NCBI RefSeq assembly: GCF_036365525.1
Contig: NC_090373.1
Location: 104,633,570 to 104,697,569 of the forward strand
Origin: Heterodontus francisci
Taxonomy: Eukaryota
Length of the DNA stretch: 64,000 bases
Direction: 5' to 3'
Shown: positions 15,348 through 18,730 of the stretch, piece by piece
How positions within the stretch are numbered: position 1 is the stretch's first letter
Layout of the letters: each line of letters opens with the position of its first letter
Program-made: the position numbers and the translations under genes
Notes under the pieces: generated by a model
Seen by the model: the letters and a program-made list of their open reading frames with translations, nothing else
Database searches by the model: none
What the model was told of the DNA's origin: nothing

Positions 15348-18300
15348 TTTTTTTTTTATTCATTCATGGGATGTGGGCGTCACTGGCTATGCCGGCATTT
15401 ATTGCCCATCCCTAATTGCCCTTGAGAAGGTGGTGGTGAGCTGCCTTCTTGAACCGCTGCAGTCCATGTGAGGTAGGTACACAGTGCTGTTAGGAAGGGA
15501 GTTCCAGGATTTTGACCCAGTGACAATGAAGAAATGGCGATATAGTTCCAAGTCAGGATGGTGTGTGACTTGGAGGGGAACTTGCAGGTGGTGATGTTCC
15601 CATGCATCTGCTGCTCTTGTCCTTCGAGGTGGTTGAGGTCGCGGGTTTAGAAGGTGCTGTTTAAGGAGCCTTGGTGCCTTGCTGCATCTTGTAGATGGTA
15701 CACACTGCTGCCACTGTGTGTCAGTGGTGGAGGGAGTGAATGTCTGTGCATGGTGTGCCAATCAAACGGGCTGCTTTGTCCTGGATGGTGTCGAGCTTCT
15801 TGAGTGTTGTTGGAGCTGCACCCATCCAGGCAAGTGGAGAGTATTCCATCACACTCCTGACTTGTGCCTTGTAGATGGTGGACAGGCTTTGGGAAGTCAG
15901 GAGGTGAGTTACTCGCCGCAGGATTCCTAGCCTCTGACCTGCTCTTGTAGCCATGGTATTTATATGGCTACTCCAGTTCAGTTTCTGGTCAATGGTAGCC
16001 CCTAGGATGTTGATAGTGGGAGATTCAGCGATGGTAATGCCATTGAATGTCAAGGGGAGATGGTTAGATTCTCTCTTGTTGGAGATGGTCATTGCCTGGC
16101 ACTTGTGTGGTGCGAATGTTACTTGCCACTTATCAGCCCAAGCCTGGATATTGTCCAGGTCTTGCTGCATTTCTACACGGACTGCTTCAGTATTTGAGGA
16201 GTCACGAATGGTGCTGAACATTGTGCAATCAACAGCGAACATCCCCACTTCTGACCTTATGATTGAAGGAAGGTCATTGATGAAGCAGCTGAAGATGGTT
16301 GGGACGAGGACACTACCCTGAGGAACTCCTGCAGTGATATCCTGGAGCTCAGATGACTGACCTCCAAAAACCACAGCCACCTTCCTTTGTGCTAGGTATG
16401 ACTCCAACCAGTAGAGAGGTTTCCCCCTGATTCCCATTGACCTCAGTTTTGCTAGGGCTCCTTGATGCCATACTCGGTCAAATGCTGCCTTGATGTCAAG
16501 GGCAGTCACTCTCACCTCACCTCTTGAGTTCAGCTCTTTTGTCCATGTTTAAACCAAGGCTCTAATGAGGTCAGGAGCTGAGTGGCCCTGGCGGAACCCA
16601 AACTGAGCATCACTGAGCAGGTTATTGCTAAGCAAGTGCTGCTTGATGGCACTGTTGATGACACCTTCCATCACTTTACTGATGATTGAGAGTAGAGTGA
16701 TGGGGCGGTAATTGGCCGGGTTGGACTTGTCCTGCTTTTTGTGTACAGGACATACCTGGGCAATTTTCCACATTGCTGGGTAGATGCCAGTGTTGTAGCT
16801 ATACTGGAACAGCTTGGCTTGGGGTGTGGCAAGTTCTGGAGAACAGGTCTTCTGTACTATTGCCAGAATATTGTCAGGACCCATAGCCTTTGCAGCATCC
16901 AGTGCCTTCAGTCGTTTCTTGATATCATGCGGAGTGAATCGAATTGGCTGAAGTCTGGCATCTGTAATGCTGGGGACTTCAGAAGGGGGCCGAGATGGAT
17001 CATCAATTCGGCACTTCTGGCTGAAGATTGTTGCAAATGCTTCAGCCTTATCTTTCGCACTGATATGCTGGGTTCCCCCATCATTGAGGATGGGGATATT
17101 TGTGGAGCCACCTCCTCCAGTTAGTTGTTTAATTGTCCACCACCATTCATGACTGGATGTGGCAGGACTGCTGAGCTTAGATCTGATCCATTGGTTCTGG
17201 GATTGCTTAGCTCTGTCTATTGCATGCTGCTTACGCAGCTTGGCATGCAAGTAGTCCTGGGTTGTAGCTTCTCCAGGTTGACACCTCATTTTGAGGTATG
17301 CCTGGTGCTGCTCCTGGCATGCCCTCCTGCACTCTTCATTGAACCAGGGTTGGTCTCCTGGCTTGATGGTAATGGTAGAGTGGGGGATATGCCGGTCCAG
17401 GAGGTTACAGATTGTGGTTGAGTACAATTTTGCTGCTGCTGATGGCCCACAGCGCCTCATGGATGCCCAGTTTTGCATTGCTAGATCTGTTCGAAATCTA
17501 TCCCATTTAGCACGGTGATAGTGCCACACAACACAATGGACGGTATCCTCAATGTGAAGGCGAGACTTCATCTCCACAAGGACTGTGCAGTGGTCACTCC
17601 TACCAATACAGTCATGGACAGAAGCATCTGCGGCAGGCAGATTGGTGAGGATAAGGTCAAGTATGTTTTTCCCTCGTGTTGGTTCCCCCACCACCTGCCG
17701 CAGACCCAGTCTAGCAGCTATATCCTTTAATACTCGGCCAGCTCGGTCAGTCGTGGTGCTACCGAGCCACTCTTAGCGATGGACATTGAAGTCCCCCACC
17801 CAGAGTACATTTTGTGCCCTTGCCACCCTCAGTGCTTCCTCCAAGTGCTGTTCAACATGGAGGAGTACTGACTCATAGCTAAGGGAGGGCGGTAGGTGGT
17901 AATCAGTAGGAGGTTATCTTGCCCATGTTTGACCTGATGCCATGAGACTTCATGTGGTCAGGAGTCAATGTTGAGGACTCCCAGGGCAACTCCCTCCCTA
18001 CTGTAGACCACTGTCCCGCCACCTCTGCTGGGTCTGTCCTGCCAGACCTCATGGCCCGGCATATCCCCCACTCTACCATTACCATAAAGCCAGGAGACCA
18101 ACCCTGGTTCAATGAAGAGTGCAGGAGGGCATGCCAGGAGCAGCACCAAGCATACCTCAAAATGAGGTGTCAACCTGGTGGGATAGTGATTGCAGTGTCT
18201 GGGACATTGTCTGTAAGGTATGATCCCACGAGTTTGACTATGTCAGGCTGTTGCTTGTCTAGTCTGTGGGACAGCTCTCCCAACTTTGGCACAAGCCCCC

Positions 18301-18730
18301 AGATGTTAGTGAGGAGGACTTTGCAGAATCGACAGGGCTGGGTTTGCCGTTGTCATTTCTGGTGCCTTGGTCGATGCTGGGTGGTCCGTCTGGTTTCATT
18401 CCTTTCTTATTGACTTCGTAGCGGTTATGTACAACTGAGTGGCTTGCTAGGCCATTTCAGAGGGCATGTAAGAGTTAATCACATTGCTGTGGGTCTGGAG
18501 TCACATGTGGGCCAGACCAGGTAAGTCCCTAAAGGACAATAGTGAACCAGATGGGTTTTTACAACAATCGACAATGGTTTCATGGCCATCATAAGACTAG
18601 CTTTTAATTCCAGATTTATTAATGAAATTCAAACTCCAATTTCTGTTGTGGTGGGATTCGAACCCATGGCCCCCTATCAATACCCCGGGTCTCTGGGTTA
18701 CTAGTCCAGTGATAATATCACTACGCCACC
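15348..18730 (-). mobile_element. Apparently full-length single-ORF CR1-group LINE (APE + RT pseudogene) with a tRNA-derived 5' head
   Basis: APE start KVLLTNIWGLVPKLGELSHRLDKQQPDIV near 18320; [59 protein letters not shown] (FADD in family); A-rich tail at 15348; A box 18718-18728 and B box 18654-18664; in-frame stops present. Confidence 0.92.

What the first reader, a model, noticed from the sequence alone, without database searches (positions are those of the whole stretch)
15348..18730. Autonomous-type LINE with a tRNA-derived Pol III SINE head as its 5' end
Seen: on the minus strand the element opens with an A box (TGGCGTAGTGA, 18718-18728) and B box (GGTTCGAATCC, 18654-18664), then ~300 nt homologous to the head and body of the SINEs at 18791 and 34624. 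At ...aagccactcagtt (18433), exactly where those SINEs switch to their LINE tail, it instead runs ~110 nt into the APE endonuclease N-terminus, then RT and the tail. There is no room for an ORF1. The host RTE reads RDMKAL at 15329-15346 and resumes as VDYCTW at 18731, so head and LINE occupy one insertion site. Established: SINE copies truncate at the 5' end, so a SINE missing exactly its tail is unexpected; CR1-group LINEs normally have a Pol II 5' UTR and ORF1. Inference: a protein-coding retrotransposon that uses a SINE/tRNA promoter. I cannot tell from here whether this family is already catalogued.
Basis: partly seen in the sequence, partly recalled or inferred. Interest (0 to 1): 0.85.

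Follow-up and report, generated by a model that had tools for sequence, protein, structure and literature searches.

The report
Shark LINE with SINE-type tRNA head
This is a dead copy of a very abundant 3.3-kb jumping gene that encodes its own copying enzymes yet starts with the tRNA-like promoter normally found only on tiny non-coding SINEs, and its coding strand has no four-T stop signal, so it is likely (not shown) read by RNA polymerase III.

Summary
Observation confirmed, and it is a family, not a chance nesting. The head-to-endonuclease join has 5,145 exact pattern matches in the genome. Among 30 copies sampled by the endonuclease start, none has another 5' end. Contigs of five other organisms bridge the same join. 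The single 975-codon APE-RT frame evolved under purifying selection between head-bearing subfamilies (pN/pS 0.16-0.28), so the family was likely autonomous. It is probably the elasmobranch Zenon LINE described in 2026, a clade that never has ORF1, so the missing ORF1 is ordinary. The tRNA head is not mentioned in that paper. The sense strand has no TTTT run in 3,298 nt, while two control LINE families do. This fits Pol III but does not prove it. No AUG opens the endonuclease frame directly. The matching SINEs were repeatedly made from this LINE by internal deletion. The body lacks the Deu core, against earlier notes. This scan has found the same family before in other genomes. Verdict: new variant of a known kind; Pol III use about 55-60% likely, untested.

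The parts
15348..18730 (-). Decayed near-full-length copy of the tRNA-headed single-ORF LINE (family length about 3.29 kb; first 8 nt missing here)
18643..18730 (-). tRNA-like head (family nt 9-96)
   Evidence: ARAGORN finds nothing in the window at default threshold; at a relaxed threshold it calls a tRNA-Thr(AGT)-like fold at nt 6-96 in every natural copy shown in the output
18718..18728 (-). Pol III A box
   Evidence: no non-CpG change among three subfamily majorities
18654..18664 (-). Pol III B box
   Evidence: no non-CpG change among three subfamily majorities
18433..18642 (-). Conserved body shared with the SINEs (V-domain of HE1-type V-SINEs by recall only; Deu core motifs absent); 15-nt private deletion
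18447..18455 (-). In-frame AUG-GCC-UAG (G at -3 and +4), followed by CAA: candidate leaky stop or reinitiation site
   Evidence: ATG in 84 of 87 and TAG in 71 of 87 LINE copies; role inferred
15412..18446 (-). Single APE-RT reading frame, 975 codons in the family, first in-frame ATG at codon 285; broken in this copy
17590..18307 (-). APE endonuclease domain (interrupted here by the inverted patch)
   Evidence: PF03372 and PF14529 on natural copy P0061, mapped
15994..16737 (-). Reverse transcriptase domain
   Evidence: PF00078
18259..18399 (-). Out-of-frame 46-codon uORF starting at the only AUG of the leader
   Evidence: two cross-species changes are synonymous in the main frame and not in this one
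18046..18178 (+). Private inverted 133-bp copy of 17273-17405 replacing about 20 nt of APE
   Evidence: absent at that place from 39 other loci
15348..15424 (-). 3' tail shared with the SINEs, ending GAATGAAT plus an A-run
18791..19206 (+). SINE: same head and body joined directly to the tail (CAGTT|CAAGGG), preceded by a partial second head
34622..35026 (+). Second SINE of the same type, inserted into another copy of the LINE
15200..15347 (+). Host RTE, left flank (continues at 18731-18790)

Best explanation
[quoted passage not shown] Shown: head, body, one APE-RT frame and tail are copied as one unit from a fixed start about 10 nt before the A box; no other 5' end was found; the frame was under purifying selection; the sense strand has no TTTT; SINE families of this genome arose repeatedly by deleting the middle. 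Inferred: Pol III transcription, and translation of an uncapped RNA by entry near the end of the body, either at a non-AUG codon or by read-through or reinitiation at AUG-GCC-UAG-CAA. From established LINE biology: target-primed reverse transcription from the tail.
For: Family and single 5' end: (26 of 30 position-sampled copies keep SINE body, 4 are truncated in the leader; 0 of 57 upstream flanks share an abutting sequence). Older subfamilies also carry the head. pN/pS 0.16, 0.17 and 0.28 against 0.68 for post-insertion changes. T-runs: 0 T4 and 8 T3+ in 3,298 nt against 4 and 22 in an RTE of the same base composition and 10 and 30 in a CR1 (T3+ versus RTE P=0.002); T3+ in the ORF 4 versus 13.0 under synonymous shuffling, with no deficit in the controls. 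AATAAA at +119 and +343, none in the control bodies. Join bridged by contigs of organisms B-F. Recurrent SINE junctions. Zenon features.
Against: T4=0 alone is weak: P=0.08 (codon shuffle) and P=0.12 (dinucleotide model, where T3+ is also not significant, P=0.15). A and B boxes are no proof of Pol III use (PMC3531059). SINE lengths of 100-700 bp are attributed to limited Pol III processivity (PMC10886601). A sharp 5' end also fits an internal Pol II promoter. All runs laid were contigs, which show neither start, strand nor polymerase. No intact copy among those whose ORFs were listed (22, 19). Only two control families were tested. No labelled Zenon sequence was aligned.
Confidence: 0.58

Rival explanations
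1. Same autonomous tRNA-headed LINE, but transcribed by Pol II. The head or body serves as a Pol II promoter or RNA-structure element, and the scarcity of T-runs reflects composition or other RNA constraints.
For: LINEs are stated to be Pol II transcripts (PMC10886601; PMC5786205). T4 absence is not significant under two null models. Poly(A) tail with AATAAA about 45 nt upstream. A 3.3-kb Pol III mRNA would be uncapped.
Against: A and B boxes unchanged among subfamilies (only 9 non-CpG sites each). T3+ deficit absent in a composition-matched RTE. AATAAA at +119 and +343 and nine AUGs before the frame opens suit neither Pol II elongation nor cap-dependent scanning.
Confidence: 0.32
2. The head-bearing element is a non-autonomous SINE-LINE chimera, mobilised in trans by a separate LINE with an ordinary 5' UTR; its ORF is a passenger.
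For: No in-frame AUG before the endonuclease and an in-frame TAG just upstream. No intact copy seen.
Against: pN/pS 0.16-0.28 between head-bearing subfamilies. The leader indel between subfamilies is 3 nt. No alternative 5' end in 30 position-sampled copies.
Confidence: 0.07
3. A one-off nesting: a SINE that lost its tail lies next to a 5'-truncated LINE.
For: None beyond the copy lying in a repeat-dense region.
Against: 5,145 exact junction matches; 39 of 39 loci; other organisms.
Confidence: 0.01

Closest known systems
Elasmobranch Zenon LINEs (CR1 group), Stuart et al. 2026, PMC13343379 (parts 1-2 of 8 and passages read; supplement listed, not read)
   Same: Single APE-RT ORF, no ORF1, poly(A) tail, RT next to canonical CR1, close similarity across sharks, nearest relatives outside vertebrates in that paper.
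   Different: The main text has 0 occurrences of 'tRNA', 'polymerase III' and 'start codon'; head, missing AUG, T-run absence and derived SINEs are not in what I read.
Lepidopteran Zenon and its internally deleted derivative Persaeus, PMC6740152 (passages read)
   Same: About 3.3 kb, one ORF, poly(A) tail, yields high-copy short derivatives made of the 5' and 3' ends.
   Different: Persaeus, which keeps the Zenon 5' UTR, has no tRNA homology and no Pol III promoter. Here the 5' end is a tRNA head, so the deletion products are textbook SINEs.
HE1 V-SINE / HER1 LINE of sharks and rays (pair listed in PMC3747384; sequences recalled, original papers not held)
   Same: tRNA-derived SINE sharing its tail with a CR1-like LINE in elasmobranchs; by recall the body matches the V domain.
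   Different: Listed as sharing the tail only; here head and body are shared too. Identity not tested.
SacSINE1 Deu-SINEs with L2-2_CM tail, PMC5499810 (parts 1-3 of 6 read)
   Same: tRNA head, conserved body and LINE tail in sharks.
   Different: Deu core motifs printed in the PMC7245038 supplement are absent from this body, and the RT falls outside the L2-like rows (L2 label by recalled motif).
Bipartite LINE-derived SINEs (Bov-tA, SINE2-1_ACar; PMC4494074, PMC5786205) and TRIMp3 Helenus/Ajax/Cassandra (PMC10886601); passages read
   Same: Small-RNA Pol III heads joined to parts of other retroelements.
   Different: All are short and non-coding; there the head was added to a deleted LINE, whereas here the autonomous parent itself carries it.

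Membership tests
Zenon (CR1 group) | RT groups with canonical CR1, apart from L2 and RTE | tested here: inconclusive
   13-row clade (99/83) is sister to the 32-row clade holding this genome's CR1 (join 83/91, not starred); no labelled Zenon row
Zenon (CR1 group) | No ORF1; single APE+RT ORF | tested here: met
   feature from PMC13343379
Zenon (CR1 group) | Poly(A) tail | tested here: met
   one copy (L068) ends in TGAA repeats instead
Zenon (CR1 group) | Sequence identity to the published elasmobranch Zenon consensus sequences | not tested
SINE (SINEBase definition) | Short (<700 bp) and non-autonomous | tested here: not met
   3.3 kb with a selected ORF; definition
SINE (SINEBase definition) | Head with at least 60% identity to a tRNA over 60 nt | tested here: inconclusive
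   A and B boxes present; ARAGORN hit only at a relaxed threshold; no Rfam tRNA match; no tRNA aligned
Deu-SINE / SacSINE1 | Deu core domain in the body | tested here: not met
   four short motifs from the printed Deu alignment do not occur in the body with up to 1 mismatch; SacSINE1 itself was not seen
V-SINE HE1 / LINE HER1 | V domain in the body and HER1 tail | not testable with these tools
   no V or HE1 sequence found in held texts or supplements; match is recalled only
Pol III type-2 transcription unit | Internal A and B boxes with start shortly before the A box | tested here: met
   start at G about 10 nt before the A box in 38 copies
Pol III type-2 transcription unit | No internal T4 terminator | tested here: met
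   0 in the family majority; 0-3 per decayed copy
Pol III type-2 transcription unit | Pol III/TFIIIC occupancy and uncapped RNA | not testable with these tools
   only contigs were available

The most novel reading that the evidence does not exclude
An autonomous, protein-coding LINE made by RNA polymerase III as a 3.3-kb uncapped RNA, purged of terminators and translated without a direct AUG by ribosome entry at the conserved SINE body. The sharks' tRNA SINE families are its deletion products, and the conserved SINE central domain is a working part (ribosome entry or RNA handling) of a LINE 5' UTR.
Probability: 0.4. Interest if true: 0.92.

Novelty: new variant of a known kind. Interest (0 to 1): 0.7.

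Why it matters
The textbook split is that LINEs are Pol II and coding, SINEs Pol III and non-coding. A high-copy LINE family that begins with a SINE head blurs that line whichever polymerase reads it. If it is Pol III, it would be a natural 3.3-kb Pol III mRNA with non-standard translation. It also makes a standing question testable. The function of conserved SINE central domains is stated to be unknown (PMC4824008). Here such a body ends exactly where the coding frame opens, so reporter assays can ask whether it recruits ribosomes. It shows a direct route by which one LINE keeps generating new SINE families.

Tried and rejected
(1) Deu-SINE/SacSINE1 identity: my own first reading and that of several earlier notes; rejected, because Deu core motifs are absent. 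(2) A hidden open-frame master lineage with GAG or CAG instead of the TAG at family nt 305. 1,214 such copies exist (about 61 GAG, 36 CAG, 3 AAG of the first 100, counted by eye). But T>G at CTA is a mutation hot spot on both strands (3.1% and 3.5% against about 0.6% overall), and SINEs show it too. Rejected. (3) Translation from the out-of-frame AUG at nt 354 with a frameshift: not excluded, but no canonical slippery site by inspection, and two cross-species changes favour the main frame (48 differences were not shown). (4) HDV-like ribozyme or other known RNA: no convincing Rfam match. (5) Target-site duplications: no consistent ones in 31 copies. (6) Relatives with DNA context in metagenome contigs: one distant locus only. 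(7) The representative-protein search never ran, machine busy. (8) Extra constraint on leader nt 349-443: 0 of 79 sites changed among subfamilies, not significant (P=0.07). (9) The head tree is poorly resolved and used only descriptively; a second tree script failed before drawing. (10) Searches with the window's older copies returned no separate family that I followed up. (11) RNA-type runs are contigs and say nothing on start or strand; run X19 showed no listed piece across the join.

Full report
1. Observation. The A box, B box, homology to the two SINEs, the switch point after CAGTT and the interrupted host RTE are all as described. This copy lacks the family's first 8 nt and is 4.4% from the family majority. 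It has five in-frame stops, four frameshifts and a private inverted patch.

2. It is a family. The 481-nt head-to-endonuclease stretch is matched over its full length by 39 of 39 other scored loci. 31 of the 39 reach the tail within the 5.1 kb fetched, and 22 are 3.24-3.32 kb long. Exact patterns give 5,145 head-to-LINE joins, 3,556 head-to-tail SINE joins and 6,480 copies of a 32-mer at the endonuclease start, each with 0 for the reversed control. Exact matches undercount, so I infer some 20,000 or more copies. To avoid selecting for the head, I took the first 30 endonuclease-start matches by position. 26 keep SINE head or body upstream, 15 of them to within 12 nt of +1, and 4 are truncated inside the leader with unrelated flanks. 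Of 1,596 pairs among 57 upstream flanks, 6 share some other repeat, and no sequence abuts the head family-wide. The start is sharp: bases are random up to position 0, then GGG(T/G)AGGC. Contigs with at least 31 nt on both sides of the join occur in organisms B, C and D, E (5 listed) and F (1 listed, depth 3.9). Named shark gene models hold fragments at 69-83% amino-acid identity.

3. The frame was working. The column majority of 22 copies has one 975-codon frame (nt 308-3232) with APE and RT. Two older head-bearing subfamilies (12 and 13 copies after dropping one near-duplicate, one young-type copy and 3 of other leader length) differ from the young one mostly at third positions. pN/pS is 0.16, 0.17 and 0.28 over nt 440-1830, against 0.68 for changes after insertion. 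One apparent stop in the A52 majority is at a CGA codon, likely CpG decay. No intact copy was seen.

4. Translation is not standard. The first in-frame ATG is at codon 285, past the endonuclease; nine ATGs lie before the frame opens and one out-of-frame ATG lies in the leader. The leader upstream of that ATG has two lengths 3 nt apart (38 and 51 of the first 100 matches, 11 other; counted by eye). This is a single event, so it is weak evidence that this part is read. Directly before the frame lies AUG-GCC-UAG-CAA, with ATG in 84 of 87 and TAG in 71 of 87 LINE copies. That G at -3 and +4 favours initiation, and that UAG-CAA is a leaky context, is recalled knowledge. Read-through, reinitiation or a near-cognate start (UUG at nt 320) are all open. 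The 5' 440 nt fold better than shuffles (z -3.2).

5. Which polymerase. For Pol III: intact A and B boxes, unchanged among subfamilies at 9 non-CpG sites each, and a start about 10 nt before the A box. There are no T4 runs, against 15 A4, 13 C4 and 8 G4. T3+ in the frame is 4 against 13.0 +/- 2.6 under synonymous shuffling, whereas an RTE of equal composition (22 vs 23.8) and a CR1 (14 vs 15.3) show no deficit. Phe is 1.8% against 2.9-6.6% in 12 relatives. Two early AATAAA are present, none in the control bodies. Oligo-T as a Pol III terminator is used as a criterion in PMC4494074. Against: T4=0 alone has P=0.08-0.12, and a dinucleotide model absorbs the T3+ deficit. Boxes are only an indication, long Pol III retroelements are not expected, and there is no raw RNA evidence. 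I put Pol III at about 55-60%.

6. SINEs come from the LINE. Besides the two main joins, 497 matches have longer joins. The first 100 show at least six recurrent types, and 5 keep LINE-specific leader bases beyond GTA (by eye). Of 30 such loci, 10 carry the head state of one young LINE subfamily over three different joins, one carries the youngest state with LINE leader, and the young main SINE shares the same state. So head-bearing LINE RNA has repeatedly given rise to SINE families. The oldest SINEs have head states not matched by any LINE I sampled, so the deepest direction is open: the LINE may once have captured the head from a SINE.

7. Comparison. The RT lies in a 13-row clade, otherwise of unnamed proteins, that is sister to the clade with this genome's CR1 (66 rows; five gene models with LINE fragments left out). 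A lepidopteran protein is the best non-shark hit for the N-terminal half. This fits the elasmobranch Zenon elements of PMC13343379: no ORF1, poly(A) tail, above 84% identity among five species. It also fits the 3.1-3.7 kb lepidopteran Zenons, whose deletion derivative has no tRNA homology. I did not align a labelled Zenon, so membership is probable, not shown. The body is not Deu; by recall it is the V domain of HE1, with HER1 as the LINE (pair listed), untested. Ten searches returned no paper that, in what I read, describes a coding LINE with a tRNA head. Seen as passages: PMC3747384, PMC6887750, PMC10886601, PMC7245038 (plus supplement passages), PMC4824008, PMC3531059, PMC4494074, PMC6740152, PMC5786205 (plus one section). 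Seen in part: PMC5499810, PMC13343379. Supplement search only: PMC5804259, PMC4758252, PMC11481361.

8. Earlier notes. Unchecked notes of this scan report the same family in other genomes. They agree on structure and T-runs. One pointed me to PMC4494074. Several call the body Deu, which my test contradicts. One also names Zenon; I saw it after reaching that reading.

9. Verdict. A real, widespread, selected LINE family with a SINE-type tRNA head, and a parent of SINE families: a new variant of a known kind. The Pol III and translation mechanisms are inferred and directly testable. Interest 0.7.

Noticed in passing
window 18046-18178: A 133-bp inverted copy of the same element's 17273-17405 replaces about 20 nt of the endonuclease. 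Patch and source each carry 2 different private changes, so it probably formed at or soon after insertion.
   Followed up: partly
43 family copies, whole element: T>G at CTA (both strands) is about five times the average T>G rate: a context-specific mutation hot spot in this genome.
   Followed up: partly
window 18791-18805: The SINE beside the LINE begins with a partial second head; L038 shows a similar duplicated head.
   Followed up: no
window 2380-2760 (-): An older SINE-like copy keeps about 10 nt resembling the LINE leader (AAACTGCTA) before the tail.
   Followed up: partly
3' ends of copies L031-L069: 6 of 23 parsed tails have 3-5 T before the A-run; could be tail decay or a trace of a terminator.
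   Followed up: no
run X24 (organism F) on L121:587-598: Its SINEs join the tail about 25-35 nt earlier than those of the other organisms, another deletion junction.
   Followed up: no
P0007, P0010, P0030, P0063, P0065, P0069: Shark gene models (for example anoctamin-7-like, aldo-keto reductase-like) contain translated pieces of this LINE, probably annotation artefacts.
   Followed up: no
window 33354-35115: Another copy of the LINE interrupted by the SINE at 34622-35026.
   Followed up: no
window 6680-6941 and 58290-58544: Tandem duplications of about 130 bp (100% and 97.7% identical).
   Followed up: no
L032: A copy with a large inversion facing a second, older head-bearing copy.
   Followed up: no
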